Below are positions 3,133 to 63,225 of a DNA stretch of 64,000 nucleotides, in pieces. The position numbers were made by a program, and so were the translations under genes. The stretch is from Acidobacteriota bacterium (GTDB lineage: Bacteria > Acidobacteriota > Thermoanaerobaculia > Multivoradales > JAGPDF01). How positions within the stretch are numbered: position 1 is the stretch's first letter; every line of letters starts with the position of its first letter. The stretch spans positions 998,890 to 1,062,889 of the forward strand of contig BTUO01000001.1 in the NCBI GenBank assembly GCA_045862895.1. Direction: 5' to 3'. The notes under the pieces were generated by a model, which saw only the letters and a program-made list of their open reading frames with translations, ran no database searches and was not told the origin of the DNA.

Positions 3133-3656
3133 TTCGGCTCAAGACGAGGGCGCCCCTGGTCGCGGTCGGTGTCTTCCTCCTGATCTACGTCGTCCCGCAG
3201 GCCGTGGGTCTCCGGATCAACACCTCGACGAGCATGCCCCGGGGCCTGTACCGCTCGGTCGGTGGAAGCGCACGGCCGGGCGCGTGCGCGGCCGTCTGTC
3301 TCCCGGCGGTCGTCTCGAGGTTCGGGATGGAGCGCCACTACCTCGGCGCCGGATCCTGCCCCGACGGCGCTGAACCGGTCGTGAAGATGGTTGCGGCGGT
3401 CGGGGGCGACGTCGTCGAGGTGACGGCGGCGGCGGTCCTCGTCAACGCCATCGCCCTGCCGAACAGCCGGCCGCTCGACCGCGATCGAGGAGGCCGCGCG
3501 CTCACGCCGTACGCGCGGGGACCCCAACGCCTCGAGCCGGGGGATGTGTGGCTCCATTCACCCTACGAGGAGCGCAGCTGGGACAGCCGCTATTTCGGCC
3601 CCGTGCGCGTCGAATGCGTCACGACGCTCGTCGAGCCGGTGCTGACCTTCCGATGA
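3129..3656 (+). CDS. traF: conjugal transfer signal peptidase TraF (S26 peptidase family)
   Basis: Begins MIRLKTRAPLVAVGVFLLIYVVP and ends ...WLHSPYEERSWDSRYFGPV, matching the TraF/TrbF-peptidase family. The ATG at 3129 overlaps the relaxase stop (ATGA). Confidence 0.7.
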   Translation: MIRLKTRAPLVAVGVFLLIYVVPQAVGLRINTSTSMPRGLYRSVGGSARPGACAAVCLPAVVSRFGMERHYLGAGSCPDGAEPVVKMVAAVGGDVVEVTAAAVLVNAIALPNSRPLDRDRGGRALTPYARGPQRLEPGDVWLHSPYEERSWDSRYFGPVRVECVTTLVEPVLTFR

Positions 3657-5761
3657 GCGCCCAGCCGCCCTATCGGCATTCGTCCAACGGGGAGGTCACG
3701 GCCAAGGGCGTCGTCGTTCGCGGCATAGCGGTAGTGATCGGTGTCGGCGTGCTGGTCGCATGGGCGGTGACGCAGCACGCTGCGCTGCGTCTCGGGTTTC
3801 ACCCGTCGCTCGGGCGCCCGTGGCTCCCCGCGCTCCCCGGCCGCGAGGTGCTGTTGAACCTCGTGGCGTGGGCGCTGTGGGGTGCGGCGCTGCTGCTCCT
3901 CGTTCCGAAGCGCACGCGGTTGCTCTCCCCCATCGTCGCCGTGCTCGGGGCAGGAGCCTTCGCCTGGTCGCAGGGGCCGCTCTTCACCCCCTTCCACGTC
4001 GTCGTCTGGGCTCGGCGCCTCGGAGCAACGGCCGAGACACGGGAGTTCTGGAAATCGGGATTCCAGGTTCTTGGCGTGGTGACGGGAGCCGCGGCGGCCG
4101 TGGCGGCCATTGTCGTAGCCGTCGTGATCCGGCGACTCAGGCCGCAGTCGGACCTGCACGGCTCGGCACAATGGGCGACGGAGCGGGAGGCGAAGGATGC
4201 CGGGCTGTTCGCTGAGACTGGGCTGATCCTGGGTCAGTGGCCTGGCCAAGAGGGGCGAGGACGAACGCTCCGACACGACGGTCCGGAGCACGTCTTCGTC
4301 TTCGCCCCGACCCGGAGCGGCAAGGGCGTCTCGCTGGTCGTGCCGAACCTGCTCACCTGGCCGCACTCGGTGCTCGTCCACGACATGAAAGGGGAGAACT
4401 GGGTGCTCTCGGCGGGCTGGCGCAGCCGCGAGCTCGGCAGCCTCTGCCTCAAGTTCGATCCGACTTGCTCGGATGACTCGGGGGCGCGCTACAACCCGTT
4501 GCTCGAGATCCGGATGGGCGACCAGGAGGTGCGCGACGCGCAGAACGTGGCCGACATCCTCGTGGACCCGAACGGCGACCGGATTCGGGACCACTGGGAT
4601 CGGACGGCCCACTCCCTGCTCGTCGGCCTGATCCTGCACGTTCTCTATGCGGAGAAGGAGAAGACGCTCGCTGGCTGCGCGCACTTCCTCGCGCGCCCCG
4701 ACCGCCCGATCGACCTGAGCCTCGAGGTCCTGCTGGGCAGCGAACACGCGCCGCCCGGTCATCCTGGTTGGCGCGACCCGGTGACAGGAGACTGGCTGCG
4801 GACGCACCCCACCGTCGCCGCCGCAGCGCGCGCGCTGATGGACAAGTCGCAGAACGAGCGCTCCGGTGTCCTCTCGACAGCCCTCAGCTTCCTCGACCTC
4901 TATCGCGATCCGATCCTGGCCCAGAACACCGCCGTCTCGGATTTCGCGCTCGAGGACTTGGTGAGCCACGAGCGGCCGGTGAGCCTCTACCTGACGGTTC
5001 CGCCGTCCGACCTCAGCCGCACCCGTCCCCTCGTCCGGCTCCTCCTGAACCAGGCTTGCCGGCGCCTGACGGAGCGGATGGACTTCTCGGCGGGTCGGGG
5101 GAGAGGGGCGGGAAAGCACCCGCTCCTCCTGATGCTCGACGAGTTCCCGGCGCTCGGGAAGCTCCAGTTCTTCCAGGAGTCCCTGGCCTACCTCGCCGGC
5201 TACGACATCCGGGCGATGCTGATCACCCAAGACCTCTCGCAGCACCAGGGCGTCTACGGCAAGCAGGAGTCGATCACGGCGAACTGCCACGTCCGGATCG
5301 CCTTCGCTGCGAACAAGCCGGAGACTGCCGAGCTGCTGTCGCAGATGGCCGGCGACACCACGGTGTCGCACAAACAGGTCTCCTACCGAGGTGGGCGCTT
5401 CGACCTGGTGATGGACCACCGGAACATCACACAGCAGGAGATCCGACGCCGATTGCTCACTCCCGACGAGGCGATGCGCCTCGATCCCGACCACGCCGTC
5501 GTGTTCGTGGCGGGTCAGCAGCCGATCTACTCGGCGAAGGCGCGCTACTTCGCCGACCGCGAACTGTCGCGGCGGGCGAGCCTGCCCGCGCCGGAGAGTA
5601 CCGAACGCGTCATGCCGCACACCTCGACGTGGCAGCGCCTCGAACCGATCGCCAGCCCGGCACGGGCCAGCGCCGAAGTCGACGCGTGCGGGCGCGCGAG
5701 CGCGGCAGCGGGTCAGCGCTGCGATCGGGACCGGGCCCTGGATCGGTCGCCGAGCCTCTAG
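3653..5761 (+). CDS. traG: type IV coupling protein TraG/VirD4
   Basis: The N-terminus is membrane-anchored. The Walker A region reads FVFAPTRSGKGVSLVVPNLLTW and ...LLMLDEFPALGKL... is typical of TraG/VirD4. The ATG at 3653 overlaps the traF stop. The 785-aa antisense ORF 3590-5947 is rejected. Confidence 0.85.
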   Translation: MSAQPPYRHSSNGEVTAKGVVVRGIAVVIGVGVLVAWAVTQHAALRLGFHPSLGRPWLPALPGREVLLNLVAWALWGAALLLLVPKRTRLLSPIVAVLGAGAFAWSQGPLFTPFHVVVWARRLGATAETREFWKSGFQVLGVVTGAAAAVAAIVVAVVIRRLRPQSDLHGSAQWATEREAKDAGLFAETGLILGQWPGQEGRGRTLRHDGPEHVFVFAPTRSGKGVSLVVPNLLTWPHSVLVHDMKGENWVLSAGWRSRELGSLCLKFDPTCSDDSGARYNPLLEIRMGDQEVRDAQNVADILVDPNGDRIRDHWDRTAHSLLVGLILHVLYAEKEKTLAGCAHFLARPDRPIDLSLEVLLGSEHAPPGHPGWRDPVTGDWLRTHPTVAAAARALMDKSQNERSGVLSTALSFLDLYRDPILAQNTAVSDFALEDLVSHERPVSLYLTVPPSDLSRTRPLVRLLLNQACRRLTERMDFSAGRGRGAGKHPLLLMLDEFPALGKLQFFQESLAYLAGYDIRAMLITQDLSQHQGVYGKQESITANCHVRIAFAANKPETAELLSQMAGDTTVSHKQVSYRGGRFDLVMDHRNITQQEIRRRLLTPDEAMRLDPDHAVVFVAGQQPIYSAKARYFADRELSRRASLPAPESTERVMPHTSTWQRLEPIASPARASAEVDACGRASAAAGQRCDRDRALDRSPSL

Positions 5762-5788
5762 CCTGGCGGATGGCACGGAGAGAGGCCC

Positions 5789-5820
5789 TTGACCCTGTAC
5801 CGCACTACAGGGTTCATACT
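5789..5820 (+). promoter_or_regulatory. MerR-type operator/promoter: -35 TTGACC, 20-bp spacer containing perfect dyad CCCTGTACcgcacTACAGGG, -10 CATACT
   Basis: Read directly from the sequence: TTGACC at 5789-5794, dyad at 5793-5812, CATACT at 5815-5820. An over-long 19-20 bp spacer with an internal palindrome is the hallmark of MerR-family regulated promoters. Confidence 0.55.
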
Positions 5821-5826
5821 CTCGGC

Positions 5827-6258
5827 GTGCGAGCGGAGGCGGAGCGTCTGACGGTCGGTGAGGTGGCGAGGGGCGCGGGCGTGCGCGTCGAGACAGTGCG
5901 CTTCTATGAGCGCGAAGGCCTGATCGATCGACCGGCGCGAACACCATCGGGATACCGCCAGTACGACCACGGGGTCGTTCGGCGGATTCGCTTCATTCAG
6001 CACGCCAAGGGTCTCGGCTTCTCCCTTCGCGAGATCGGCGAGCTCCTCTCCCTCCGTGCGGCGCCCGACGGCACTTGCGCGGCTGTCAGGGCGCGCGCTC
6101 TCGCGAAGATCGGAGACATCGATTCGCGCATTGCCTCCCTCGGCGCCATGCGGCGTGCGCTGGTGCGGCTGGTGGAGGCTTGCGCGGGCGGCGGACCGGC
6201 AAGCGAGTGCCCGTTCCTCGAAGCCTTGGACCAGGAGAATGACCATGCGGTCGATTGA
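5827..6258 (+). CDS. merR: MerR-family metal-responsive regulator with Hg-MerR-like Cys spacing
   Basis: With a GTG start at 5827 the N-terminus aligns to MerR (LTVGEVARGAGVRVETVRFYEREGLI in the HTH). Three Cys are spaced 35 and 9 residues apart (C...35...C-x8-C), matching C79/C114/C123 of Tn501 MerR. The six-frame ORF 4768-6258 is a spurious extension. Confidence 0.7.
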   Translation: MRAEAERLTVGEVARGAGVRVETVRFYEREGLIDRPARTPSGYRQYDHGVVRRIRFIQHAKGLGFSLREIGELLSLRAAPDGTCAAVRARALAKIGDIDSRIASLGAMRRALVRLVEACAGGGPASECPFLEALDQENDHAVD

Positions 6259-6559
6259 GCTGATCTACTTCCCCGGCTGTCCGAATGTAGCTGCCGCCCG
6301 CGAGGCTCTCGGTCGTGCCTTCTCTGCTCTGAACCTGCCCCCGCAGTGGACCGAGTTCCAAACGGACGACCCGGCGTTGCCGGACCATGCCCGTGGGTAC
6401 GGGTCGCCGACCATCCTCGTGGATGGCCGGGACGTCTTCGGTGGAGAGGGGACGGGTTCCGCGAGCTCGTGCCGGCTGTACCTCGACGAACTTGGCCGAC
6501 CTGCCGGGTCTCCACCGCTCGAGCGTATTGTCGCTGCTCTCGCTGGAACCGCGTCATGA
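6239..6559 (+). CDS. glutaredoxin-like thioredoxin-fold protein (monothiol CPxV motif)
   Basis: MTMRSIELIYFPGCPNVAAAREAL ... SPTILVDGRDVFGGEG resembles the glutaredoxin/NrdH fold with a single active-site Cys. The ATG at 6239 overlaps the merR 3' end and the stop overlaps the merT-like start. Confidence 0.45.
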   Translation: MTMRSIELIYFPGCPNVAAAREALGRAFSALNLPPQWTEFQTDDPALPDHARGYGSPTILVDGRDVFGGEGTGSASSCRLYLDELGRPAGSPPLERIVAALAGTAS

Positions 6560-6957
6560 GGAAGCGGGGCCCCACACCACCTCCGTTCGACACCCGCAAG
6601 GTTGGCGGCGAGGTCGTGGCCGCCGGCGCGGCGGTAGCTGGCGCGGGAGGAGCCCTGATGGCGACGGCCGCGACCGCATGCTGCGCGGGGCCCGTGATTG
6701 CGCCGCTCGTCCTCGGGATTCTTGGTGCTGGAGGCGCAGCCTGGGCGGCCCGCTTCGAGCCCTACAGCGTCTGGTTTCTGGCCGGCTCCGGAGGGATGCT
6801 CGCGTTCGGTTTCTGGTCCATCTACCGGGTCCGCCTCGCGTGCGAGGTCCCGGCGGGAGGGCGGAACGCAAGGCAGCGATTGGTGCGCCTTCTCCTATGG
6901 GTGTCGGCCAGCCTCTGGGTGGCCGCGGTAGCGATCAACGTGTGGGTGCTCCCGTGA
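6556..6957 (+). CDS. merT: MerT/MerF-like membrane transporter with vicinal CC motif in first TM helix
   Basis: The first TM helix reads ...ALMATAATACCAGPVIAPLVLGILGAGG... and two or three TM segments are predicted. The ATG at 6556 overlaps the upstream stop (ATGA). Confidence 0.55.
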   Translation: MRKRGPTPPPFDTRKVGGEVVAAGAAVAGAGGALMATAATACCAGPVIAPLVLGILGAGGAAWAARFEPYSVWFLAGSGGMLAFGFWSIYRVRLACEVPAGGRNARQRLVRLLLWVSASLWVAAVAINVWVLP

Positions 6958-7134
6958 AGAGGGGCCCATGCGGGGATCGCCGAGAGCTGCCGTGACTGCG
7001 CTGTGCGAAGTGACCGAGTCCTCGCCTCGGTGCCCCGTCTCCATCTCGACGCCGAAGCCCTGAAGAAGGCTGCTGATTCGGCCTGAAAGCAGGGCGATCC
7101 GGGGCCGCGAACGCGCGGCCCAGCTCAACATCTG

Positions 7135-7163
7135 TTGACACTATCTCAACGCTTGTGTAGTGT
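7135..7163 (+). promoter_or_regulatory. sigma70-like promoter candidate for trb operon (TTGACA-17 bp-TAGTGT)
   Basis: TTGACA at 7135-7140, 17-nt spacer, TAGTGT at 7158-7163, just upstream of trbB. The -10 lies very close to the predicted trbB ATG at 7172, which implies a leaderless or very short 5'UTR, so confidence is low. Confidence 0.3.
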
Positions 7164-7171
7164 CCCCGTCC

Positions 7172-8155
7172 ATGCGGCAGGGGCCACACGACGAGCAGCG
7201 GCAGCGCTGGACTGAGGGGCTGACCCGCGAGCTGGGGGAGACCATCGTCGGCGCACTCGGAAACGACGACTTGGTCGAGGTCCTCCTCAACCCAGACGGG
7301 CGACTCTGGCTCGACTCGCGCACCGAGGGGATGTACGACTCCGGCTCGCGGCTCCTCCCTCAGGAGGCGGAGGCGATCCTTGCCTCGATCGCCGGCATGC
7401 TCGGAACGCAGATCGACTCCGAGCACCCGATCATCGAGGCCGAGCTACCGCTCGACGGGAGCCGGATCGAGGGCATGGTGCCGCCGCTCGTGGCGAGTCC
7501 GTGCTTCGCGATCCGCAAGCGGGCGACGCGGGTATTCCCTCTCTCGCACTACATCGAGACGGGCTCGATGACCCTGCTGCAGGCCGAGCTGCTGCGGGCG
7601 GCCATCGCCGAGCGGCGCAACATCCTGATTTCTGGCGGAACCGGCTCGGGCAAGACGACGCTCGTCAACGCGATCCTCGACGAGATGGTCCGGCTCGGCG
7701 AGCCGAGCGAGCGCTTCATCCTGCTCGAGGACACGGTCGAGCTCCAGTGCACCGCCGAGAACCACACGGCTCTTCGCACCACGCGCCACGTCGACCTCGC
7801 CACCCTGGTCAAGGCGACGATGCGTCTCAATCCCGACCGAATCATCATCGGCGAGGTCCGGGGGCGCGAAGCCCTCGACCTCCTCAAGGCCTGGAACACC
7901 GGCCACCCCGGCGGCTGCACCACCGTTCACGCCAACAACGCCGTCGCCGCCCTGCACCGCCTCGACCAGCTGGCGCAGGAAGCGGGCGTGCCCTCCCAGC
8001 GCGCCCTGATCGCCGACACCGTCGGCCTCGTCGTCCACATCGAGGGAGGGAGCCGCGGGCGCCGCGTCTCCGAGCTCGTTCGTGTCGCCGGCCTCGCCGG
8101 CGACGGCAGCTTTCAACTCGAGCCGACCGCGGCTCGGCCTACCGAGGAGGAGTGA
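7172..8155 (+). CDS. trbB: conjugal transfer ATPase TrbB (VirB11 family)
   Basis: Walker A ILISGGTGSGKTTLVNAIL plus RIIIGEVRGREALDLLKAWNTGHPGGCTTVHAN are typical VirB11/TrbB motifs. The ORF track begins at GTG 7160; the ATG at 7172 is preferred. Confidence 0.85.
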   Translation: MRQGPHDEQRQRWTEGLTRELGETIVGALGNDDLVEVLLNPDGRLWLDSRTEGMYDSGSRLLPQEAEAILASIAGMLGTQIDSEHPIIEAELPLDGSRIEGMVPPLVASPCFAIRKRATRVFPLSHYIETGSMTLLQAELLRAAIAERRNILISGGTGSGKTTLVNAILDEMVRLGEPSERFILLEDTVELQCTAENHTALRTTRHVDLATLVKATMRLNPDRIIIGEVRGREALDLLKAWNTGHPGGCTTVHANNAVAALHRLDQLAQEAGVPSQRALIADTVGLVVHIEGGSRGRRVSELVRVAGLAGDGSFQLEPTAARPTEEE

Positions 8156-20855: not shown

Positions 20856-21175
20856 AGCCCTGCGCGGGGGTTCCTACTCCGCCCGGTGCCGAAGGCGTTC
20901 GACTCAGGTCTACAAGCTAATGACCGCACGTCGCCTCGCCTGGAAGCGGCAGGCGCGCTCTCACCCTCGACCTTCACGCGGTCGCCCTTGTCGGGCGTTC
21001 GAGGAGGAATCGGTGTCCAGGCGGCGCAGCGGATCGGTGACCGCCCTCGGCAGCGCAGCTGACGGCTGAAGACCAAACCGCGCATTCGGGGGAAGCGCTG
21101 AACCGGGGACTCGCGCCGAGATCGAGCCCCGCTTCGTGACCAGCCTGCCGGGGAGGCAAGCCTGCTACCGAGGCC

Positions 21176-21960
21176 CGGGCAGGCGAGCGCCGCGCCAGCC
21201 AGAAGCCGCTGTCACGCCTCTCGCCACACGCTCCAGGGTGCCCCACCGGGCTGCGCGCGAGCCCCTCGTCTCCTCCGGGGCGTCGTGCTCGCCCAGCCAC
21301 CCACCCTGGAGCAGCCCGTGCCTCTTCGTCCTCGCGCCCTCACCGACGTCAAGAGTGCGAAGGGCGGTCTCGTCATCCTCCTCCTTTGATCGCGGTCTCC
21401 GCCCAACGTCCCGTAAACCGTGCCCGCGGTGCGCCCGGCCGCAAGGCCAAGCCTCCGGCGCGCCGACTGACGTCAAGCGGCGCGGCCTTGTCGGCCGGGC
21501 TTCGTTCACCCCGGGCTCCCACCGGGCCGTGTTGGACGGTAACCACAACCAAAGGAGAAGGCAGATGACCAACAAGACCGCAATCACCCTCTACGGCAAC
21601 GTCGGCGGAGACCCGGAGACCCGCACCATCCCCGGCAAGCAGGTCACGAAGCAGTTCTACGACCCGATCATCGACGACATGGTCGAGCGCGAGTTCACCA
21701 CCCCCGAACGCGAGGTCCGGACCTTCTCGATCGCCGTCAGCAAGAAGGACGCCGAGGGCAACGACGTCACCCGCTGGATCCGCTGCGATGACTGGAACCG
21801 CCTCTCCCGCCTGGTCGGCAAGGGCGACCGTGTGAAGGTCAAGGGTCACTTCCGCGAGCGCACCTACCAGAAGGACGGCGAGACGAAGACCGTGCGCGAC
21901 TTCGTCGTCGAGGACCTCAAGATCGAGCGCCACAAGATCCGGCAGCGGGCGGAGTAGGAA
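21176..21960 (+). repeat. direct repeat copy 1 (~780 bp; structured leader + ssb-like gene), ~90% identical to 49274-50048
   Basis: Direct comparison of the two regions in the sequence. Similarity begins at GGCAGGCGAGCGCCGCGCCAGCC and ends at the ssb-like stop codon. Substitutions and small indels are concentrated in the non-coding leader. Confidence 0.85.
21565..21957 (+). CDS. SSB-like OB-fold protein (130 aa, no acidic C-terminal tail), copy 1
   Basis: The RBS AAAGGAGAAGG lies 4 nt before the ATG. Third-position GC exceeds 90%, whereas the in-frame upstream extension 21136-21564 has markedly lower third-position bias. ITLYGNVGGDPETRT ... KGDRVKVKGHFRERTYQKDGETKTVRDFVVEDLKI matches the SSB OB-fold pattern. 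Confidence 0.65.
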   Translation: MTNKTAITLYGNVGGDPETRTIPGKQVTKQFYDPIIDDMVEREFTTPEREVRTFSIAVSKKDAEGNDVTRWIRCDDWNRLSRLVGKGDRVKVKGHFRERTYQKDGETKTVRDFVVEDLKIERHKIRQRAE

Positions 21961-31531: not shown

Positions 31532-34500
31532 TCATGCCACGCTCGGCTCGAGCTCCGGTTCCGAACCGGGCTGCGGCTCGGGGTTCTTTTCGATCTCGCG
31601 CCGCCGCCAGAGCTTGTAGATGGCCGGATAAACCAACAGCTCGAGGGCGAACGAGGTGATGAGGCCGCCGATCATCGGGGCGGCGATTCGTTTCATGACG
31701 TCCGACCCGGCCGAGGTCGACCACATGATCGGCAGGAGGCCCATGAAGGCCGCCGCCACCGTCATCATCTTGGGTCGGGCCCGCTTGACGGCGCCGTGGA
31801 CGATGGCCTCGTCGACCTCGCCCTCGTTCCGCAGCAGGCCGCGCCGCTTGGCGTCGTCCCAGGAGAGGTCGAGGAACAGCAGCATGAAGACGCCGGTCTC
31901 GGCGTCGAGGCCGAGGAGAGCGATCATGCCGACCCAGGCGGCGATCGAGACGTTGTAGTCGAGCAGCCAGAACAGCCAGATCGCGCCGATTGCGGAGAAC
32001 GGGACCGCCAGCATCACCACCGTGGCCTTGAAGCTGGAGCGGGTGTTCGCGTAGAGGAGGGCGAAGATCAACACCAGCGTGATCGGCACGACCACCTTGA
32101 GGCGCTCGCGGACGCGGATCATGTTCTCGTACTGCCCGCTCCAGGTGAGCGAATACCCAGCCGGGAGCGTTACTGCGCTTTCGACCCGTCGCTTGGCCTC
32201 CTCGACATAGCTGCCGACGTCGCGCCCGGCGATGTCCACGTAGACGTAGCCGGCGAGGAACCCGTTCTCGTCACGAAGCATGGACGGCCCCTGGAGCAGC
32301 CGGACGTCGGCGAGTTGGGCGAGAGGTACCTGGGCCATCGTGGGGGTCGGCACCAGCACGCGACCGAGCCTCTCGGGGTCGTCCCGCAGCTCGCGTGGAT
32401 ACCGGACATTCACCGGATAGCGGGCGCGGCCCTCGATGGTGGTGGTGACGTTCTCGCCGCCGATCGCCGCCGCGATCACCATGTGCAGGTCGTCGATGAC
32501 GAGACCGTAGCGAGCGAGCTGGTCGCGGCGCGGAGAAATGTCGAGGAAGTAGCCGCCGGCGACTCGTTCGGCGTAGGCCGACCGCGTGCCGGGTACGTCG
32601 CGGACGGCCTGTTCGATCTCGGCGCCGAGACGTTCGATCTCGGCCAGGTCGGCGCCGAAAACCTTGATCCCCACGGGAGTGCGGACTCCCGTCGTCAACA
32701 TGTCGATGCGGGCCTTGATCGGCATCGTCCAGGCGCTGGTCACGCCGGGGCTCGCCAGGGCGCGGTTCATCTCGTCGACGAGCTCGTCCCAGGAGATGTG
32801 GTCGGGCCAGAAGGGGCGGAATGCAGGCTTCGTCCAATCGGGCCAGTCCGAGTACCACCGCGGCTTGGCTCGCCACTCGTCCTCGGGTTTCAGCACTACC
32901 GTGGTCTCGAACATCGAAAACGGAGCCGGGTCGGTGGACGTGTCGGCGCGCCCCGCCTTGCCGAAGACCCTCTCCACCTCCGGGAAGGCGCGCAGCACCT
33001 TGTCCTGGGCAATCAACAGCTCCTGCGCCTGGGCCACGGAGATGCCCGGAAGCGTCGTAGGCATGTGAAGAATGGTGCCTTCGTTGAGTGGCGGCATGAA
33101 CTCGGAGCCGAGGGTGAAATAGGCCGGTACGGAGATCGCGACCAGAAGCAGCGCCGCACCGATGACCTTCTTGGGGTGGCGGAGGACGAAGCGACAGGCC
33201 GGCTCGTAGACGCGGAAGATCGAGCGGCTGATCGGATGACGCTCTTCGGCATGGTAGGTACCGACGAGGGCGCCCGTCGCCAGCCGAGCCAGCCACCGCG
33301 GCCGGAAGCTGAACGGATCGATCCGGGCGAACATCATGCGCAGCGCGGGGTCGAGGGTGATGGCTAGGAGCGCGGCAATGGCCATCGCCAGGTTCTTCGA
33401 GAAGGCGAGGGGCTTGAAGAGGCGCCCCTCCTGGTCGACGAGGGCGAACACCGGCAGGAAAGCGACGGCGATGACCAGGAGCGAAAAGAAGACTGATGGA
33501 CCCACCTCCATCAGGGCCTCCAGGCGGACCTGATGAAAGCTCCCCTTGCGACCACCGACCTGCCAGTGGTGAATCTTGTTGTAGGCGTTCTCGACCTCGA
33601 CGATCGCTCCATCCACGAGGACGCCGATCGAGATGGCGATTCCTGCGAGCGACATGATGTTGACCGTCAGGCCCATGAGGTACATGGGGATGAAGGCGAG
33701 CAGCACCGAGATCGGAATGGTCAGAATGGGAACGACCGCGGAAGGCACGTGCCAGAGGAAGAAGAGGATCACCAACGAGACGATGATCATCTCGATCACC
33801 AGCTCGTGCTTCAGCGTGCCGATCGCGCGTTCGATCAGCGTCGAGCGGTCGTAGGTGGTGACCACTTCGACGCCCGCGGGGAGAGACTGCTTCAGGTCCG
33901 CCAGCTTCGCCTCGACAAGGCGGATGACGTTGAGCGCGTTCTCCCCGTGACGCATCACCACGATGCCCCCGACGGTGTCGCCTTCACCGTCGAGGTCCGA
34001 AACGCCACGGCGGATCTCGGGACCGAGCTCGATGTTCGCTACGTCGCGCAGCAGCACCGGGACGCCCCCGGGAGCGACCTTGACCACGATCTGCCCGAGG
34101 TCGTCCGTGCTCTTGGCGTAGCCACGGCCGCGCACCATGAACTCCCGCCCCGACAGCTCCAACAGGCGTCCGCCGATCTCGTTGTTCGAACGCCGCACGG
34201 CGTTGACGACCGTGTCGATCGGAAGTCCATAGGCCGCCAGCCGGTTAGGGTCGACCGTCACCTGGTACTGCCTCTGGTAGCCACCGATCGAGGCGACTTC
34301 GGCGACCCCGGGAACGGACTGCAGGGCGTAGCGCAGCGTCCAGTCCTGGTAGGAGCGCAGCTCGTCGAGCGAGTGCTTCTTCTCGCGGTCGACGAGGGCG
34401 TACTGGTAGACCCAGCCGACGCCGGTCGCGTCCGGACCGAGCTCGGTCTGGACGCCCTCGGGGAGCCGCGACTGGATCTTGGACAGATACTCGAGGACCC

Positions 34501-34822
34501 TGGAGCGTGCCCAGTAAAGGTCGGTGCCGTCCTGGAAGATCACGTAGACGTACGAGAACCCGAAGTCGGAGTAGCCGCGGATCGCTTTGACCTTCGGCGC
34601 TCCGAGCAGGTTGGCGATGATCGGGTAAGTGACCTGGTCCTCGAGGATGTCGGGAGAACGGTCCCATCGCGAGTAGACGATGACCTGGGTGTCGGAGAGA
34701 TCCGGCAGAGCGTCCAGTCGGATCTGCCGCAAGGTGTAGCCGGCGAGGACGATCAGGACAGCGACGGCCCCGAGCACGAGGAATCGGTTTTCGGCGGAGA
34801 AGCGGATGATGCGCTTGATCAT
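31532..34822 (-). CDS. cusA: heavy-metal efflux RND pump CusA/CzcA family
   Basis: 1096 aa. The N-terminus MIKRIIRFSAENRFLVLGAVAVLIV and overall HME-RND architecture match. The antisense ORFs 31445-33367 and 33533-34849 are rejected. Confidence 0.9.
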   Translation of the reverse strand: MIKRIIRFSAENRFLVLGAVAVLIVLAGYTLRQIRLDALPDLSDTQVIVYSRWDRSPDILEDQVTYPIIANLLGAPKVKAIRGYSDFGFSYVYVIFQDGTDLYWARSRVLEYLSKIQSRLPEGVQTELGPDATGVGWVYQYALVDREKKHSLDELRSYQDWTLRYALQSVPGVAEVASIGGYQRQYQVTVDPNRLAAYGLPIDTVVNAVRRSNNEIGGRLLELSGREFMVRGRGYAKSTDDLGQIVVKVAPGGVPVLLRDVANIELGPEIRRGVSDLDGEGDTVGGIVVMRHGENALNVIRLVEAKLADLKQSLPAGVEVVTTYDRSTLIERAIGTLKHELVIEMIIVSLVILFFLWHVPSAVVPILTIPISVLLAFIPMYLMGLTVNIMSLAGIAISIGVLVDGAIVEVENAYNKIHHWQVGGRKGSFHQVRLEALMEVGPSVFFSLLVIAVAFLPVFALVDQEGRLFKPLAFSKNLAMAIAALLAITLDPALRMMFARIDPFSFRPRWLARLATGALVGTYHAEERHPISRSIFRVYEPACRFVLRHPKKVIGAALLLVAISVPAYFTLGSEFMPPLNEGTILHMPTTLPGISVAQAQELLIAQDKVLRAFPEVERVFGKAGRADTSTDPAPFSMFETTVVLKPEDEWRAKPRWYSDWPDWTKPAFRPFWPDHISWDELVDEMNRALASPGVTSAWTMPIKARIDMLTTGVRTPVGIKVFGADLAEIERLGAEIEQAVRDVPGTRSAYAERVAGGYFLDISPRRDQLARYGLVIDDLHMVIAAAIGGENVTTTIEGRARYPVNVRYPRELRDDPERLGRVLVPTPTMAQVPLAQLADVRLLQGPSMLRDENGFLAGYVYVDIAGRDVGSYVEEAKRRVESAVTLPAGYSLTWSGQYENMIRVRERLKVVVPITLVLIFALLYANTRSSFKATVVMLAVPFSAIGAIWLFWLLDYNVSIAAWVGMIALLGLDAETGVFMLLFLDLSWDDAKRRGLLRNEGEVDEAIVHGAVKRARPKMMTVAAAFMGLLPIMWSTSAGSDVMKRIAAPMIGGLITSFALELLVYPAIYKLWRRREIEKNPEPQPGSEPELEPSVA

Positions 34823-34839
34823 GGCGATCTCCCCTCGGC

Positions 34840-36312
34840 TCAGTGCTGATGGCCGGTGTTGGCGGGCGTCGGGGCGGTGGCTCCGGCGGACGGTGCGGGT
34901 GCCTGCGCCGCCTGCAAAGCGGCGCGCAGTTTCGATTCGGAGTCGAGAAGGAAGTTGGCACGGGTCGCTACGCGTTCGCCTTCACGAACTCCCGACGAAA
35001 TGACGACCCTGCCGGCGCCACGAAGTCCGACCTGGACATCGCGCGGCTCGAAGGTTCCGGGCTCGAGCTCGACGAAGACCACCTGCCTCAGTCCGGTGTC
35101 GATCACCGCGTCCTCGGGGACGGCGATGCCATCGGCCGCCTCCAGGTCGGCCGTGACGTCGACGAACATGCCGGGCTTCAGGTGACCGTCGAGATTGCCC
35201 AGCTCGAGGCGCACCTTGAGAGTCCGGCTCTCGGCCGAGAGCGTCGGGTAGATGAAGGTGACCTCGGCAGGCATGACGTGTCCGGCCTCGTAGGGCAGGT
35301 GGACATCCGCCCGCTGTCCGACGCGCAAGAGCCGCGCTTCGTTCTCGTAGAACTCGGCCTCCACCCAGACATGGGAGAGGTCGGTGAGCGTGAAGAGCTC
35401 CATACCGGGCTGAACCTCCATTCCTTCGAGAACCTCCTTGGTGCTCACGAAGCCGGAGGCCGGTGCGACCAGCGTGACCGTGCGTTGCGCCTTGCCCGTG
35501 CGCTCGATGGTCTCGAGGAAGCTCTGTGGCACGTCGAACAGCTCCAGACGTCGGCGCGACGATGCGGCGAGCTCTTCGCCGCCTTCTCTGACTTCGGGAA
35601 TGTTGGAGCTCGCGAAGCGGGCGGCCGACTGCCGGGCGCGCAGGTACTCTTCCTGCGAGGCGAGCAACTCCGGCGAGTAGATGGCGAGAACCGGCTGGCC
35701 TCGGCGCACCAGTTGCCCGGTGAAGTTGACGTGGAGTTTCTCCACCCAACCGGCGATCTTGGTGTGGACGTGGCGAACCAGCCGCTCATCCGGCAGCACC
35801 AGACCCACGGTCCGGGTGGAGCTGGCGAGATGCTCGCGCGCCGCGACCGCGGTGCGGACGCCGGCGAGCTGGATGCCGCCGGCGTTTACGGAGACGGTCG
35901 CCAGCCCCGGAACCGAGCTCGCCGGGCGCGAGGCTTCGTCTGCATAGACCGGCACGTACTCCATCCCCATCGAGTCTTTCGCCGGCACCGGCGAGGTCAC
36001 CGACGGGTCCATCGGGCTGCGGTAGAAGAGGATGCGACGCTGTTCGGCGCCCGCGGCGCTGCCGGACCGGTCCGCGGCGTGCTCGCTCTTAGGAATCGGC
36101 ACCAGCTTCATGCCGCAGATCGGGCAGTCGCCCGGCTTGTCGGAGGTGTAGGTCGGGTGCATCGGGCAGTGCCAGCCGGCCCCCTCCTCCGAGTGCTCGG
36201 CGCCGCAGCCGAGAAACGGCAGGGCGACGAGGAGCAACCCGAGCACGAGCAGCGTGCGCCGGGCCGCGGCGGAGCGGGCGAGAGAATGGAACGGGTTGCG
36301 GAACATGGTCAC
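34840..36312 (-). CDS. cusB: RND efflux membrane fusion protein CusB/CzcB with N-terminal CPMHP...CPICGM metal-binding domain
   Basis: Signal/lipobox region, then WHCPMHPTYTSDKPGDCPICGMKL and a periplasmic adaptor beta-barrel region. Confidence 0.8.
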   Translation of the reverse strand: MTMFRNPFHSLARSAAARRTLLVLGLLLVALPFLGCGAEHSEEGAGWHCPMHPTYTSDKPGDCPICGMKLVPIPKSEHAADRSGSAAGAEQRRILFYRSPMDPSVTSPVPAKDSMGMEYVPVYADEASRPASSVPGLATVSVNAGGIQLAGVRTAVAAREHLASSTRTVGLVLPDERLVRHVHTKIAGWVEKLHVNFTGQLVRRGQPVLAIYSPELLASQEEYLRARQSAARFASSNIPEVREGGEELAASSRRRLELFDVPQSFLETIERTGKAQRTVTLVAPASGFVSTKEVLEGMEVQPGMELFTLTDLSHVWVEAEFYENEARLLRVGQRADVHLPYEAGHVMPAEVTFIYPTLSAESRTLKVRLELGNLDGHLKPGMFVDVTADLEAADGIAVPEDAVIDTGLRQVVFVELEPGTFEPRDVQVGLRGAGRVVISSGVREGERVATRANFLLDSESKLRAALQAAQAPAPSAGATAPTPANTGHQH

Positions 36313-37640
36313 TCCTTCACGCCGGCCAGGAGTGACCCGGTACCGGCCATGCGGTCGAATGCGACGGAAGCGATGAATCGGTCGGCCTCGCGGCGCGCGA
36401 GCGCGACGCGGGCTTCGAGCCAGAGGTTGAAGTCCTCGATGACGGTGGAGAAATCTCCCCGGCCGGTGAGGTAGCCGGCACGGGCGGCGGCGAGGGCGGC
36501 GCTCGTCTGGGGCAGGATGCCCTGGCGATAACGGTTCGCCTGCTCGTCGGCGTTCTGCCAGGCGGCGAGGAGGCTCGCGGCCTCGCCGCGCACCATTGCC
36601 TCGGCGTCCGCCTGCTCTCGGCGCGCGGCCTCGAGCTCGTACTCGGCAGCGCGCAGCATCGGCAGCTGCTTCTGGCGGCGCCAGATCGGCAGCTCGACGC
36701 CGATGCCGAGCAGGACGACGGGGTCGTAGCCCCCGCGCGCGGCGAGCCCGGCATTGGCCGAGAAGTTGGGCTTGAGCTCGAGCCGGGCGAGCGCGACCCG
36801 ACGCTCGGCGGCGATCACGGTCGCCTGCGCCCGCCGGACCTCGGCGGAGCCGGCGAGAGCGAGCCGCTCGGCATCGGAGCCGATCGGCCGGCTGCCCGGC
36901 AGGAGCCGGGTGTCCGCGAGGGGTGCGTCGCCGGGGCGATCGAGCCAGCGGTTGAGCTCGGCGACCAGGGTTCGCCGCTCCATGGCCAGGTCGCTCACCA
37001 ACTCAGCGATGCGCAGCTCCTGGACCTGGATCTTGAGCACCCCTTCCTGGTCTCCCTCGCCCGCGGAGTAGCGACTGTGGGCGATCTCTTCGAGCAGGTC
37101 GACCAACTCGTCGGCCGCGGCGAGCGCCTCGCGCTCGCGATCGAGTGCCCAGACCCGCGCGTAGAGAGAGCGAACCTCGGCGGCGACCTGCCGCTCGAGC
37201 GCGGCGAGATCGGCCCGCGCCCGCTCGGTTTCGGCCCGCGCGACGTCGCGCGCGGCGGCGCGTTTGCCGGGGTACGGGAGGCCCTGTCGGGCCCGGACGC
37301 CGAGCATCGACATCTCCTCCGAGCCGACAGTCGGCTCGAAGCCAATGTTCTGGAGCTCTGCCTCGACCATCGGGTCGGGCAGGGCGCCGGCGGGCGCCTC
37401 CATCTCGCGCCGCGCCTCGATCTCGGCCCGCTTCGCGGCGAGCGCCGGGGCTCGCGACAGCGCCTCGGCGACGAGCGCCTCGAGCTCCGCGACAGGCTCA
37501 TCGGAGAGTAGCCCCGGCGCCGAGGTGAGGTCGGCCGTCCGAGATTCGGTTGGGGTTGCTGCGGGCGCGGGCTCGGCCTGCCCGAAGGCCGGCGCCTGGA
37601 GCGCCACCAAGAGGGTGAGCGCTGGGAGAATGCGGTCCAT
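36309..37640 (-). CDS. cusC: outer membrane factor CusC/CzcC (TolC family)
   Basis: Signal peptide MDRILPALTLLVALQAPAFG and the two-repeat OEP architecture. Confidence 0.75.
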   Translation of the reverse strand: MDRILPALTLLVALQAPAFGQAEPAPAATPTESRTADLTSAPGLLSDEPVAELEALVAEALSRAPALAAKRAEIEARREMEAPAGALPDPMVEAELQNIGFEPTVGSEEMSMLGVRARQGLPYPGKRAAARDVARAETERARADLAALERQVAAEVRSLYARVWALDREREALAAADELVDLLEEIAHSRYSAGEGDQEGVLKIQVQELRIAELVSDLAMERRTLVAELNRWLDRPGDAPLADTRLLPGSRPIGSDAERLALAGSAEVRRAQATVIAAERRVALARLELKPNFSANAGLAARGGYDPVVLLGIGVELPIWRRQKQLPMLRAAEYELEAARREQADAEAMVRGEAASLLAAWQNADEQANRYRQGILPQTSAALAAARAGYLTGRGDFSTVIEDFNLWLEARVALARREADRFIASVAFDRMAGTGSLLAGVKE

Positions 37641-37710
37641 GAGGTCCTCCTCGACCATTCCGGATGGAGCCCGCCTCTATTGGCGGGGTCCGCTCAGGCG
37701 TGGAGGGGCC

Positions 37711-41641: not shown

Positions 41642-42253
41642 TCAGTGGTGAGGCGCGGTCGGAGGGGAGGAAGCGTCGTCGCCGGCAAGGAAGCGCTCCA
41701 TCTCGAGCTCCTGCTCCAGCTCGGCCCGCGAGATCGGGTTGTGACGCTTCATTTCGGCGAGCTCCGCTTCGGTGAGCGCGGGGAGCAGGCGAATGAGTTG
41801 CACGAGCTCCCAGGTCTCGGCGTCGTCCTCGGGCGAAGCGGTGCCCCAGGCCGGCATGCCGGTCAGCTTGATGCCGTTCTCGATGATCCAGAAGAGCTCG
41901 CCGTCGCTGAGCTCCTGGGTCGCGGGCGCCGTCATGTCCGGCGCCCGTGGGTAGAGGTTGCGGCCCATCTTGGTGTCGCCCTTGCCGTCGTTGCCGTGGC
42001 AGGACGCGCAATGGTCTGCCCAGTGGGTGCGGGCCGAGCGCAGCCCTTCGGGCGTCGGCAGGAGCGGGTTCCGTGCCCGCGCCGTGCTGGCGGGAATCAG
42101 CAGGCCGCGAGCGGCTCTCGCCATCACGACTTCGGCGCGGGGTGGATCTTTGCGCGCCGAGATCCCGGTGAGCGCGAACCCGATCGCAGCGACGGACGCC
42201 ACTCCGCCGACCACGGCGAAGAGGCGGACGATCCACTTACCCACCGTGCTCAT
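41642..42253 (-). CDS. membrane-anchored c-type cytochrome
   Basis: TM anchor, then the haem-binding motif CASCHG. Confidence 0.7.
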   Translation of the reverse strand: MSTVGKWIVRLFAVVGGVASVAAIGFALTGISARKDPPRAEVVMARAARGLLIPASTARARNPLLPTPEGLRSARTHWADHCASCHGNDGKGDTKMGRNLYPRAPDMTAPATQELSDGELFWIIENGIKLTGMPAWGTASPEDDAETWELVQLIRLLPALTEAELAEMKRHNPISRAELEQELEMERFLAGDDASSPPTAPHH

Positions 42254-48620: not shown

Positions 48621-49208
48621 CTAGCGCGAAACCCTTACACCGCAACTGCAGTCGAGACAGCCGTGGTCGGCGCAGGTGCGGCAAGAGCGTTGGAGATCGG
48701 CCCGCAGCGCCGTGCGCGCCCGGTGGAGCCGGACCATGGCGTTGTTGGCGGTGAGGCCCGCCCCGCGGGCGAAATCGGCCGGCCGGCTTCCTTCGAGGTC
48801 GACCCGGCGCAGGATCTCGCTGTATTCCGGACGGAGCGCCGGGAGCAGCGCCTCGAAGCAGTGGCAGAGGGCGGCCTCGATCTCCGGCGGCGGCTCGCTC
48901 GCGTCCCCGAGCTCGCGCGCCAGCGCTTCGAGGCCACGCGCCTCCGCGCCGCGTCGGCGATAGTGGTCGACCACCGCGTTTCGCAGCAGCCGGTAGAACC
49001 AGGCCACCGCCCGCTCCTCATCGCGAATCTCTCCCGCCTGCTCGAGTCCGCGCACGAACGCCTCCTGCAGGATCTCCTCCGCGGCAGCCCGACTCTCGAC
49101 TCGGCGCTCGAGAAACGCGAGGAACCGCCGGTGATTCTCGACCCAGGCGGCGACGACCGCGGGCTGGGGTAGTTCCGGCGCTGGCTGCTCGTGTTCGAGA
49201 CTCTCCAT
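48621..49208 (-). CDS. ECF sigma factor with C-terminal Cys-rich extension (CorE-like, copper-responsive type)
   Basis: Sigma-70 region 2 and 4 patterns ([12 protein letters not shown]..., ...[35 protein letters not shown]), then the tail [15 protein letters not shown]. Start chosen at MESLEHEQ. It sits directly upstream of copA and the multicopper oxidase, as does CorE in Myxococcus xanthus. Confidence 0.65.
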
Positions 49209-49273
49209 CACGCGACGATACTCCCCTGGCGAAGACCGTCCGCCGCAGGACTGCCTGAGGCAGGGCAGGCGAG

Positions 49274-63010: not shown

Positions 63011-63165
63011 GGGTCAGCGGTGGGCAGAAAGTCGCCGGCGACGGTCCTCTCCTTCCGCCGGAGCACGGGCACGGCTGGGTGTCCTTTGACGCGGCGGGCG
63101 CCGTCAGAAGAGACACCAAACCCGTCACAGATGGAGCGGCTGCAGGGCTTGAGGTCCCGCCGGCA

Positions 63166-63225
63166 CGCGACTGCCAGACGCTCGGCGTCGTTGACGGGCT
63201 CGCCGATGGCGACCACCATTGCCAT
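63166..63225 (-). pseudogene. duplicated N-terminal fragment (about 19 codons) of the NERD-kinase gene fused after HsdS-like gene 2
   Basis: MAMVVAIGEPVNDAERLAV versus MAAVVPIGEPVNDAERLAIAHL. The 63166-63260 block is about 85% identical in nucleotides to 61536-61610. The ORF then diverges into non-coding-like sequence (62968-63165). Confidence 0.45.

What the first reader, a model, noticed from the sequence alone, without database searches (positions are those of the whole stretch)
5789..6957. Minimal mer-like operon (MerR operator-promoter, merR, glutaredoxin-like, merT-like) lacking merA/merP, embedded between traG and trbB
The regulator reproduces the Hg-MerR Cys spacing (35 and 9) and the promoter has the diagnostic 20-bp spacer with a perfect dyad. 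However, merR is co-directional with and first in the operon rather than divergent. No mercuric reductase is nearby. A monothiol glutaredoxin-like protein replaces MerP. The operon could confer uptake without reduction (hypersensitivity or a sensor module). It could be a remnant of a larger mer operon, or it could respond to another thiophilic metal.
Basis: partly seen in the sequence, partly recalled or inferred. Interest (0 to 1): 0.5.

Follow-up and report, generated by a model that had tools for sequence, protein, structure and literature searches.

The report
Self-contained mercury-type operon without reductase
A three-gene, self-regulated mercury-type module (metal sensor, small cytoplasmic thiol protein, membrane transporter) sits in a conjugative element of an Acidobacteriota genome; it is intact, under selection, and one version of a very widespread reductase-less gene set that nobody seems to have characterised.

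Summary
At 5789-6957 there is a MerR-type promoter (TTGACC, 20-bp spacer, CATACT) with a perfect 8+8 dyad. Three overlapping co-directional genes follow: a MerR-family metal sensor (Cys84/119/128), a 104-aa thioredoxin-fold protein, and a MerT-family membrane protein. They lie between traG and trbB, and no merA or merP is in the 64 kb.

The "remnant" reading is wrong. The module sits at the same site in related elements and also outside conjugative elements, with dN/dS of 0.12-0.24.

The small protein does not replace periplasmic MerP. It has no signal peptide and belongs to a large family (about 5,400 cluster representatives). That family is usually fused N-terminally to a MerC-like transporter, and to the organomercurial lyase MerB in actinobacterial plasmids. 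It nearly always follows this same regulator and the same conserved operator (55 of 59 distinct sites). Only 1 of the first 90 loci fetched has MerA nearby.

Mercury(II) is the most likely inducer:
- The three-Cys geometry matches MerR.
- The domain is linked to MerT, MerC, MerB and once to MerA.
- The closest annotated regulator lies beside merA.

This is not proven, because subfamily HMMs and the tree are undecided. What the module does with the metal is inferred, not shown.

The parts
5789..5794 (+). -35 hexamer TTGACC of the MerR-type promoter
   Evidence: Sequence. TTGAC[CT] is present at this position in 55 of 59 distinct homologous upstream sites.
5792..5813 (.). Operator: perfect inverted repeat ACCCTGTA-n6-TACAGGGT, overlapping the -35 hexamer and lying inside the spacer
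   Evidence: One match in the window and none in 100 shuffles. The dyad centre is fixed relative to TTGAC in 56 of 59 distinct sites. Consensus ACyCTrTAs-n4-sTAyAGGGT.
5815..5820 (+). -10 hexamer CATACT, 20 bp after the -35 hexamer
   Evidence: Sequence. A 20-bp spacer with TAnAnT-like -10 is found in 55 of 59 distinct sites. No 16-18-bp promoter is found in 5600-7300.
5827..6258 (+). merR-like metal-sensing activator, 143 aa, GTG start 6 nt after the -10 hexamer (probably leaderless); Cys84, Cys119, Cys128
   Evidence: Pfam MerR, MerR_1 and MerR-DNA-bind. NCBIfam CueR 118, ZntR 117.5 and MerR 116 bits, all below their cut-offs. PDB best hits are Bacillus MerR at 86 bits and Tn501 MerR at 85 bits. 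Three Cys and an 8-residue loop are conserved in the 64 homologous regulators aligned with it.
6245..6559 (+). Cytoplasmic thioredoxin-fold two-Cys protein, 104 aa (C12-P-N, GSPTILVDG, C76-R-x-Y, P90); related to the NCBIfam 'DF family (seleno)protein'
   Evidence: No Pfam hit. NF049942 scores 50.7 bits over its full length, against a cut-off of 70. AF2 pLDDT 87.8. Fold matches to Mrx3, Grx and Trx are weak. Invariant residues. Identical to GMU64569.1, a hypothetical protein of an Acidobacteriota MAG.
6556..6957 (+). MerT-family inner-membrane protein, 133 aa, with the Cys42-Cys43 pair in the first hydrophobic segment and a single loop Cys (Cys96)
   Evidence: Pfam MerT 33.5 bits against a cut-off of 32.9. 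NCBIfam MerT 31.5 bits against a cut-off of 150. Most of the 74 homologues carry PF02411, and some are named 'mercuric transporter MerT family protein'. Aligned with the MerT proteins of L059 and L088, where the CC pair is invariant.
3548..5761 (+). traG/virD4 coupling protein (upstream flank)
   Evidence: Pfam T4SS-DNA_transf 347 bits, TraG-D_C and TrwB_AAD_bind.
7160..8155 (+). trbB/virB11-type ATPase (downstream flank)
   Evidence: Pfam T2SSE 139 bits. 94-96% amino-acid identity to the trbB of L001 and L003.

Best explanation
This is an intact, autoregulated, MerA-independent mercury-type module carried as accessory cargo at the traG|trbB junction of an integrative conjugative element in an Acidobacteriota chromosome.

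Proposed mechanism:
1. The MerR-family dimer sits on the ACCCTGTA-n6-TACAGGGT dyad inside a 20-bp-spacer promoter.
2. It binds a soft metal, most probably Hg(II), through Cys84 of one subunit and Cys119/Cys128 of the other.
3. It then remodels the over-long spacer, so that RNA polymerase transcribes merR, ORF2 and ORF3 as one, probably leaderless, translationally coupled mRNA.
4. ORF3 (MerT family) carries the metal across the inner membrane on its intramembrane Cys-Cys pair.
5. ORF2, a cytoplasmic thioredoxin-fold protein with two conserved Cys, is the partner that takes the metal from, or delivers it to, the transporter. This is the role the N-terminal domain of MerA plays in classical operons.

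The window carries the split MerT version of a much commoner arrangement. In that arrangement the same domain is fused to a MerC-like transporter and followed by a Cys-rich thioredoxin_3 protein.

Shown: the anatomy, the conservation, the selection, the family links, and the absence of merA in 64 kb.
Inferred: Hg(II) as inducer, the direction of transport, the hand-off, and the fate of the metal (buffering on thiols, or reduction by a MerA encoded elsewhere).
For: Regulator and promoter:
- The promoter/operator is unique in the window and conserved in 55 of 59 distinct sites.
- The three Cys and the 8-residue loop C-x-G-x-G-P-x-S-E-C-P-[IF]-L are kept in the 64 linked regulators aligned with the window's. 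They align without gaps to Bacillus MerR. The CueR loop is one residue shorter and has Ser at the first position. The CadR loop is two residues shorter.
- The closest annotated plasmid relative (57% identity) is a PGAP-named Hg(II)-responsive MerR divergent from merA in Ca. Manganitrophus.
- Regulators of the same set that head a real mer operon (L059), a MerT-HMA (MerTP) fusion operon (L088) or a fusion of the ORF2-type domain to MerB (L092) score best on TIGR02051 MerR, by 11-26 bits.

Links of the ORF2 domain to mercury genes:
- Fused to a MerC-like domain in about 55 of 80 species loci.
- Fused to MerB in actinobacterial plasmids: Pfam MerB 6e-42, with merR directly upstream and overlapping in Rhodococcus pRZP1.
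- Adjacent to MerT or MerTP.
- Inside a merR-merT-merP-X-...-merA operon, where MerA scores 554 bits on TIGR02053 against a cut-off of 454.
- The same invariant residues occur in all these contexts.

Intact and selected:
- dN/dS is 0.12-0.24 for all three genes, similar to traG at 0.15.
- The genes overlap by 14 nt and by ATGA.
- The exact proteins recur on about 200 contigs.

No second operator lies near the Cu/Ag cargo.
Against: - The window regulator itself is not assignable. CueR 118.2, ZntR 117.5 and MerR 116.4 bits are all about 30 bits below their cut-offs. Among 10 other linked regulators the top model is MerR in 4, ZntR in 4 and CueR in 2.
- NJ bootstrap for grouping with Hg-MerRs is only 37-54%.
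- The 35/9 Cys spacing is, to my knowledge, shared with PbrR. A 20-bp spacer is that of PzntA rather than the 19 bp of Tn501 Pmer.
- ORF3 lacks the second cytoplasmic-loop Cys of MerT and passes Pfam by only 0.6 bits.
- The element's other cargo is Cu/Ag resistance. About 8 of the 80 species loci have a CopA-like ATPase within 8 kb.
- Importing Hg(II) without a reductase is known from the literature to sensitise cells, so the physiological benefit is unexplained.
- A true member of the DF family sits in an arsenic island.
- Proximity of Cys12 and Cys76 in the fold could not be measured.
Confidence: 0.6

Rival explanations
1. The anatomy is the same, but the physiological inducer and cargo is another thiophilic metal (Pb, Cd or Zn; or Cu, Ag or Au in keeping with the element's other cargo). 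The module would then buffer or move that metal.
For: - HMM scores tie between CueR, ZntR and MerR. One linked regulator (L015) passes a ZntR model.
- The 20-bp spacer matches PzntA (my knowledge).
- The Cys spacing is, to my knowledge, shared with PbrR.
- The element carries CusCBA-like genes, a multicopper oxidase and a P1B-ATPase.
- CopA-like ATPases lie near about 8 of the 80 species loci, and CusRS lies next to the module in L006.
Against: - Cys rather than Ser at the position that marks +1-ion sensors, and a loop longer than in CueR or CadR.
- The domain is fused or linked to MerB, MerC, MerT and MerA, never to CopZ- or CzcD-type partners.
- The closest annotated relative lies beside merA.
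- No operator is found in front of the Cu/Ag genes.
Confidence: 0.2
2. The module is a thiol/disulfide or metalloid (As/Se/Te) redox relay rather than a metal transporter. The thioredoxin-fold protein would pass reducing equivalents to, or through, the Cys-bearing membrane protein under thiol-reactive stress, in the manner of CcdA/DsbD.
For: - ORF2 has a thioredoxin fold. The N-terminal domain of the Streptomyces MerB fusion passes Pfam Thioredoxin_3.
- The NCBIfam family includes selenoprotein forms, by its name.
- A bona fide DF member lies in an ars island.
- A related regulator heads a CcdA operon in Leisingera.
- The common form is followed by a CxxC thioredoxin_3 protein.
Against: - There is no CxxC in ORF2; the motif is C-P-N-V.
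- The regulator has a metal-type Cys triad, not a redox-type site such as the [2Fe-2S] cluster of SoxR.
- The partners are specifically mer-family proteins.
- All soluble parts appear to be cytoplasmic, so no periplasmic acceptor is evident.
Confidence: 0.12
3. The module is a decaying leftover of a full mer operon that lost merP and merA on insertion into the element.
For: No merA or merP in 64 kb. ORF3 scores weakly on the MerT models and lacks one loop Cys.
Against: - dN/dS is 0.12-0.24 in three independent lineages.
- The reading frames are intact and overlapping.
- The same triad is found in at least five other places, including non-ICE sites.
- MerA-less architecture is the norm for the family.
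Confidence: 0.03

Closest known systems
Gram-positive-type mer operons (Bacillus sp. RC607, S. aureus pI258), where merR is the first gene of the operon
   Same: merR is co-directional and co-transcribed with the structural genes. There is a dyad operator inside an over-long spacer. The regulator has a three-Cys site that aligns without gaps to Bacillus MerR.
   Different: Those operons contain merA (and merP/merB). Here there is none. The spacer is 20 bp rather than 19 bp. The regulator scores below the TIGR02051 cut-off.
Tn21/Tn501 merRTP(C)AD
   Same: A MerR-type sensor and a MerT-family transporter with an intramembrane Cys-Cys pair. The operator half-sites are of the same kind; some family members read TTGACTCCGTAC-n4-GTACGG, almost the Tn501 operator as I recall it.
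   Different: merR is not divergent. There is no periplasmic MerP and no MerA or MerD. MerT has one rather than two loop Cys. There is an extra cytoplasmic thioredoxin-fold protein.
N-terminal HMA domain of MerA (NmerA) as cytoplasmic Hg(II) acceptor from MerT
   Same: The proposed role is the same: a small cytoplasmic two-Cys domain next to, or fused to, the transporter or enzyme.
   Different: The fold is different (thioredoxin-like, not ferredoxin-like HMA). The Cys are 64 residues apart, not in a CxxC. Function is untested.
NCBIfam NF049942 'DF family (seleno)protein' and Pfam Thioredoxin_3 (PF13192)
   Same: ORF2 aligns over the full length of NF049942, positions 1-96. The N-terminal domain of the Streptomyces MerB fusion passes PF13192. 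The invariant C-P, GSPT and C-R-x-Y motifs are shared with a true member, L093.
   Different: ORF2 scores 50.7 bits against a cut-off of 70. It has no CxxC. The family has no described function.
'MerC family mercury resistance protein' as PGAP names the 245-aa fused form
   Same: The N-terminal domain, the upstream regulator and the operator are all the same.
   Different: In the window the domain is a separate gene, the membrane partner is MerT-like rather than MerC-like, and the downstream thioredoxin_3 gene is absent.

Membership tests
Hg(II)-responsive MerR (TIGR02051 equivalog) | N-terminal MerR-type HTH plus coiled-coil dimerisation helix | tested here: met
   Pfam MerR, MerR_1 and MerR-DNA-bind, E 1e-14 to 1e-19.
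Hg(II)-responsive MerR (TIGR02051 equivalog) | Three metal-binding Cys equivalent to Tn501 C82/C117/C126 (Bacillus C79/C114/C123) | tested here: met
   Cys84/119/128. Gapless alignment to 4ua1. Conserved in the 64 linked regulators aligned with it.
Hg(II)-responsive MerR (TIGR02051 equivalog) | Score above the curated equivalog cut-off and better than for other metal subfamilies | tested here: not met
   116.4 bits against a cut-off of 150.85. CueR scores 118.2 and ZntR 117.5.
Hg(II)-responsive MerR (TIGR02051 equivalog) | Phylogenetic placement with characterised Hg-MerRs | tested here: inconclusive
   The NJ tree places the clade next to Tn501 and Bacillus MerR, but bootstrap is 37-54%.
Hg(II)-responsive MerR (TIGR02051 equivalog) | Dyad operator within a 19-20-bp-spacer promoter | tested here: met
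Hg(II)-responsive MerR (TIGR02051 equivalog) | Activation by Hg(II) | not testable with these tools
   Needs a reporter assay.
MerT (PF02411 / NF010314) | Pfam gathering threshold | tested here: met
   33.5 bits against 32.9, covering profile positions 12-112 of 116. Most homologues carry PF02411.
MerT (PF02411 / NF010314) | NCBIfam equivalog cut-off | tested here: not met
   31.5 bits against 150.
MerT (PF02411 / NF010314) | Cys-Cys pair in the first transmembrane helix | tested here: met
   A-C42-C43-A-G-P, invariant in the alignment with the L059 and L088 MerT proteins.
MerT (PF02411 / NF010314) | Cys pair in the cytoplasmic loop between helices 2 and 3 | tested here: not met
   There is a single Cys (L-A-C96-E-V), as in L001 and L003. 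L059 and L088 have two.
Glutaredoxin, monothiol or dithiol (PF00462) | Family HMM match and a CGFS or CPYC active site | tested here: not met
   No Pfam hit at E <= 1. The motif is C-P-N-V.
Thioredoxin-fold superfamily | beta-alpha-beta ... beta-beta-alpha fold, with Cys at the N-terminus of helix 1 and a cis-Pro loop | tested here: inconclusive
   AF2 pLDDT 87.8, with strands at 4-8, 36-39 and 56-59 and helices at 15-28 and 92-101. Foldseek top hits are Mrx3, Grx2 and Trx, but the best E is 0.011. The N-terminal domain of the Streptomyces MerB fusion passes PF13192.
NCBIfam NF049942 DF family (seleno)protein | Score at or above 70 bits | tested here: not met
   50.7 bits over the full length. 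L093, a true member, scores 70.4 bits and shares the invariant residues.
MerP | Signal peptide and an HMA fold with GMTCxxC | tested here: not met
   No HMA motif in the window. ORF2 starts directly with strand 1.
Complete mer operon | Presence of merA | tested here: not met
   No reductase motif in six frames. No Pyr_redox hit among the ORFs scanned. The rest of the genome could not be examined.

The most novel reading that the evidence does not exclude
The ORF2-type thioredoxin-fold two-Cys domain is an unrecognised core component of a widespread MerA-independent mercury pathway. It would be a cytoplasmic thiol relay that couples to MerT or MerC transporters and, in actinobacteria, is built onto MerB. 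It could be the missing acceptor that clears Hg(II) from MerB and from transporters in the many organisms that lack mercuric reductase.
Probability: 0.35. Interest if true: 0.75.

Novelty: new variant of a known kind. Interest (0 to 1): 0.55.

Why it matters
Mercury resistance is taught as transport plus reduction by MerA. A genome survey (PMC8261052) shows that many organisms have MerB without MerA, and nobody knows how they cope with the Hg(II).

Here one small uncharacterised domain ties these cases together:
- About 5,400 cluster representatives.
- Nearly always under a dedicated MerR-type sensor with one conserved operator.
- Fused to MerC or MerB, or adjacent to MerT.
- Almost never near MerA.

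This gives a concrete, cloneable three-gene unit, already mobile on a conjugative element. With it one can test whether bacteria have a reductase-free way of handling mercury, or whether such modules serve a MerA encoded elsewhere. The promoter-regulator pair is also a candidate biosensor part.

Tried and rejected
- DNA similarity of 5700-7100 to plasmids: no match.
- Pfam on ORF2: nothing.
- Foldseek against the PDB: only weak thioredoxin-superfamily hits, so the fold is assigned but no family.
- Sigma-70 and terminator scan: none, which is uninformative for a 20-bp-spacer promoter.
- Subfamily assignment of the regulator by NCBIfam HMMs: undecided.
- Subfamily assignment by PDB phmmer ranking: MerR 86 and 85 bits, CueR 83, CadR 82, which does not discriminate.
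- Subfamily assignment by NJ bootstrap: 14-54%.
- A second operator near the Cu/Ag cargo, which would have pointed to a copper regulon: none.
- Literature searches for a thioredoxin-like partner of MerT, MerC or MerB: nothing specific. The nearest idea is Haft's SaoT, a thioredoxin-like protein proposed to handle a mercury-like species.
- I could not test whether Cys12 and Cys76 are adjacent in the model, because no coordinates are returned.
- I could not test whether the host genome has merA elsewhere.
- The 'remnant' and 'MerP substitute' readings were considered and rejected, as explained above.
Full report
**What is there**

- A -35 hexamer TTGACC (5789-5794) and a -10 hexamer CATACT (5815-5820) are separated by 20 bp.
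- Inside lies a perfect inverted repeat, ACCCTGTA-n6-TACAGGGT (5792-5813).
- That repeat occurs once in the 64-kb window, with none in 100 shuffles. A degenerate family consensus finds only this site.
- A normal 16-18-bp promoter scan finds nothing, and there is no intrinsic terminator.

Three genes follow on the + strand:
- A MerR-family regulator: GTG 5827-6258, 143 aa.
- ORF2: 6245-6559, 104 aa, overlapping merR by 14 nt.
- ORF3: 6556-6957, 133 aa, ATGA overlap with ORF2.

The regulator's start codon lies 6 nt after the -10 hexamer. The same is true in related loci with ATG starts. The mRNA is therefore probably leaderless; this is an inference.

**Context**

- The window has 68.7% G+C.
- It carries a MobA/VirD2-type relaxase, TraF, TraG, then the module, then TrbB, TrbC, TrbE, TrbL, TrbG, TrbI, ParA and ParB.
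- A 28-kb Cu/Ag cargo follows: a CusCBA-like pump, a multicopper oxidase, a P1B-ATPase with HMBD and YHS domains, and cytochromes.
- ORF2 and ORF3 are identical to GMU64569.1 and GMU64570.1, hypothetical proteins of an Acidobacteriota MAG. They sit on a 1.2-Mb contig and recur on about 200 contigs. The element is therefore an ICE in a chromosome.
- No mercuric-reductase active-site motif and no HMA motif exists in any frame of the window.
- None of the ORFs scanned hit Pyr_redox or MerB.

**The three proteins**

The regulator:
- It has the MerR HTH and dimerisation helix.
- Cys84, Cys119 and Cys128 align without gaps to Cys79/114/123 of Bacillus MerR.
- Subfamily models do not decide. CueR scores 118.2, ZntR 117.5 and MerR 116.4 bits, all below their cut-offs.

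ORF3:
- It passes Pfam MerT narrowly (33.5 against 32.9 bits).
- Its homologues nearly all carry PF02411.
- It keeps the intramembrane Cys-Cys pair but has only one loop Cys.

ORF2:
- It has no Pfam hit.
- It matches NCBIfam NF049942, 'DF family (seleno)protein', over the full length but below the cut-off.
- A confident AF2 model (pLDDT 87.8) has a thioredoxin-type topology, with the first strand at residues 4-8. There is therefore no signal peptide.
- Foldseek gives only weak hits to mycoredoxin, glutaredoxin and thioredoxin.
- The family invariants are C12-P13, G-S-P-T (53-56), D63, C76-R-x-Y and P90.

**Relatives elsewhere**

- Close homologues (70-82% identity) form the same triad at the same traG|trbB junction in other elements, L001 and L003.
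- More distant triads sit in ordinary chromosomal neighbourhoods, L097 and L101.
- dN/dS between the three ICE copies is 0.13-0.17 for merR, 0.12-0.19 for ORF2 and 0.20-0.24 for ORF3. For comparison, traG gives 0.15. The module is under purifying selection and is not a remnant.

A scan of one genome per species found 194 loci that encode the ORF2 domain, in many phyla. Among the 80 fetched:
- About 60 have the homologous regulator immediately upstream and co-directional.
- In about 55 the domain is the N-terminus of a protein of about 245 aa. Its C-terminal part is MerC-like: motif L-P-K-L-A-C-P-A-C-W-P-A-Y-A-G, Pfam MerC 30.6 bits against a cut-off of 27.6.
- That fused gene is usually followed by an 88-aa Cys-rich thioredoxin_3 protein. 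PGAP calls the pair 'MerC family mercury resistance protein' and 'thioredoxin family protein'.
- A profile search finds 5,411 cluster representatives at E <= 1e-3.

**Links to mercury**

- In actinobacterial plasmids the same domain is the N-terminus of MerB, the organomercurial lyase. In Rhodococcus pRZP1 the arrangement is merR followed by the domain fused to MerB. In Streptomyces xanthophaeus the gene is annotated merB. Pfam MerB scores 6e-42 and 1e-39.
- In a Gemmatimonadota MAG (L059) the domain is a separate gene inside merR-merT-merP-X-DUF302-membrane-merA. The MerA passes TIGR02053 at 554 bits.
- In L088 the order is merR, the domain, then a MerT-HMA fusion.
- Only that one locus among the first 90 has a MerA within reach.
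- The three Cys and an 8-residue loop are conserved in the 64 linked regulators aligned with the window's. CueR has a shorter loop and Ser at the first position, and CadR has a still shorter loop.
- The best annotated plasmid relative of the window regulator (57% identity) is a PGAP 'Hg(II)-responsive' MerR divergent from merA in Ca. Manganitrophus.
- The regulators of L059, L088 and L092 score best on the MerR model by 11-26 bits.

Against this:
- Ten other linked regulators split 4 MerR, 4 ZntR and 2 CueR.
- NJ bootstrap for joining the Hg-MerRs is 37-54%.
- A true DF-family member lies in an arsenic island.
- Some loci sit near copper ATPases or CusRS.

**The operator**

Upstream of the regulator, 55 of 59 distinct sites share three features:
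- TTGAC[CT].
- A dyad centred at the same base, with consensus ACyCTrTAs-n4-sTAyAGGGT.
- A TAnAnT -10 hexamer after exactly 20 bp.

Some read TTGACTCCGTAC-n4-GTACGG. From my own knowledge, that is nearly the Tn501 mer operator, with one extra spacer base.

**Most likely mechanism**

A MerR-type activator autoregulates a three-gene operon in response to a soft metal, most probably Hg(II). The MerT-family protein moves the metal on its Cys-Cys pair. The cytoplasmic thioredoxin-fold protein is its thiol partner.

The fusion and split relationship with MerC and MerB argues that the two act together physically. A fused 1:1 domain cannot be a bulk sink, so a relay role is more plausible than sequestration.

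Three things remain unknown:
- Whether the flow is inward.
- Where the metal goes next: cell thiols, the Cys-rich thioredoxin_3 protein in the common form, or a MerA elsewhere.
- What benefit the module brings.

**Comparison and novelty**

- The regulatory layout, with merR first, is known from Gram-positive mer operons.
- MerT and MerC are known transporters.
- The NCBIfam family exists, but without a described function.
- I found no paper that describes this domain as a mer component.
- A genome survey explicitly asks how MerB-only organisms dispose of Hg(II) (PMC8261052).

I file the finding as a new variant of a known kind. It is of moderate interest in itself. It would be of higher interest if the domain proves to define a reductase-independent mercury route.

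Noticed in passing
window 21136-21957 and 49191-50045: Two direct repeats of about 0.8 kb, 90% identical. Each is an ORF ending in an SSB domain. Together they bracket the 28-kb Cu/Ag resistance cargo. This may mark cargo acquisition by recombination, or two fused elements.
   Followed up: partly
window 22635-48583: Copper/silver cargo. It includes cupredoxin, COX2-like and cytochrome c genes, a CusA/CusB(HMBD)/OMP pump (31535-37658), a multicopper oxidase (42240-43601), a second OMP, and a P1B-ATPase with two HMBD domains and one YHS domain (45944-48583). An ECF sigma factor lies next to it. No MerR-type operator lies in front of any of these genes.
   Followed up: partly
window 50117-61583 (- strand): ORFs of 1863 aa and 561 aa with no Pfam match lie next to a 1398-aa protein with a NERD nuclease-related domain and a Ser/Thr kinase domain. 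This could be a defence or accessory island.
   Followed up: no
L059 7554-7976: A MerP-like HMA protein in a Gemmatimonadota mer operon has an in-frame TGA exactly at the first Cys of GMTCxxC (VTGMT*PTCAV). It is a candidate selenocysteine MerP.
   Followed up: partly
L092 5998-6999; L091 5995-6966: Actinobacterial plasmid MerB proteins (Rhodococcus pRZP1, Streptomyces xanthophaeus) carry the ORF2-type thioredoxin-fold domain at their N-terminus. In pRZP1, merR is directly upstream and overlaps the gene. The tblastn search matched 79 plasmid records, nearly all actinobacterial.
   Followed up: partly
window 5815-5829 and L001, L003, L011, L021, L087: The regulator's start codon lies 6-7 nt after the -10 hexamer in this subclade, which suggests a leaderless operon mRNA. 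Other clades have a leader with GGAGG.
   Followed up: partly
L094 5315-7827: In the Ca. Manganitrophus plasmid, the gene after merR is an HMA-bearing P-type ATPase split over two frames (5315-7093 and 6967-7827). This is either a frameshift or an assembly error.
   Followed up: no
window 61487-61615 and 63129-63257: A 129-nt direct repeat, 79% identical, with copies 1.6 kb apart near the right end of the window.
   Followed up: no
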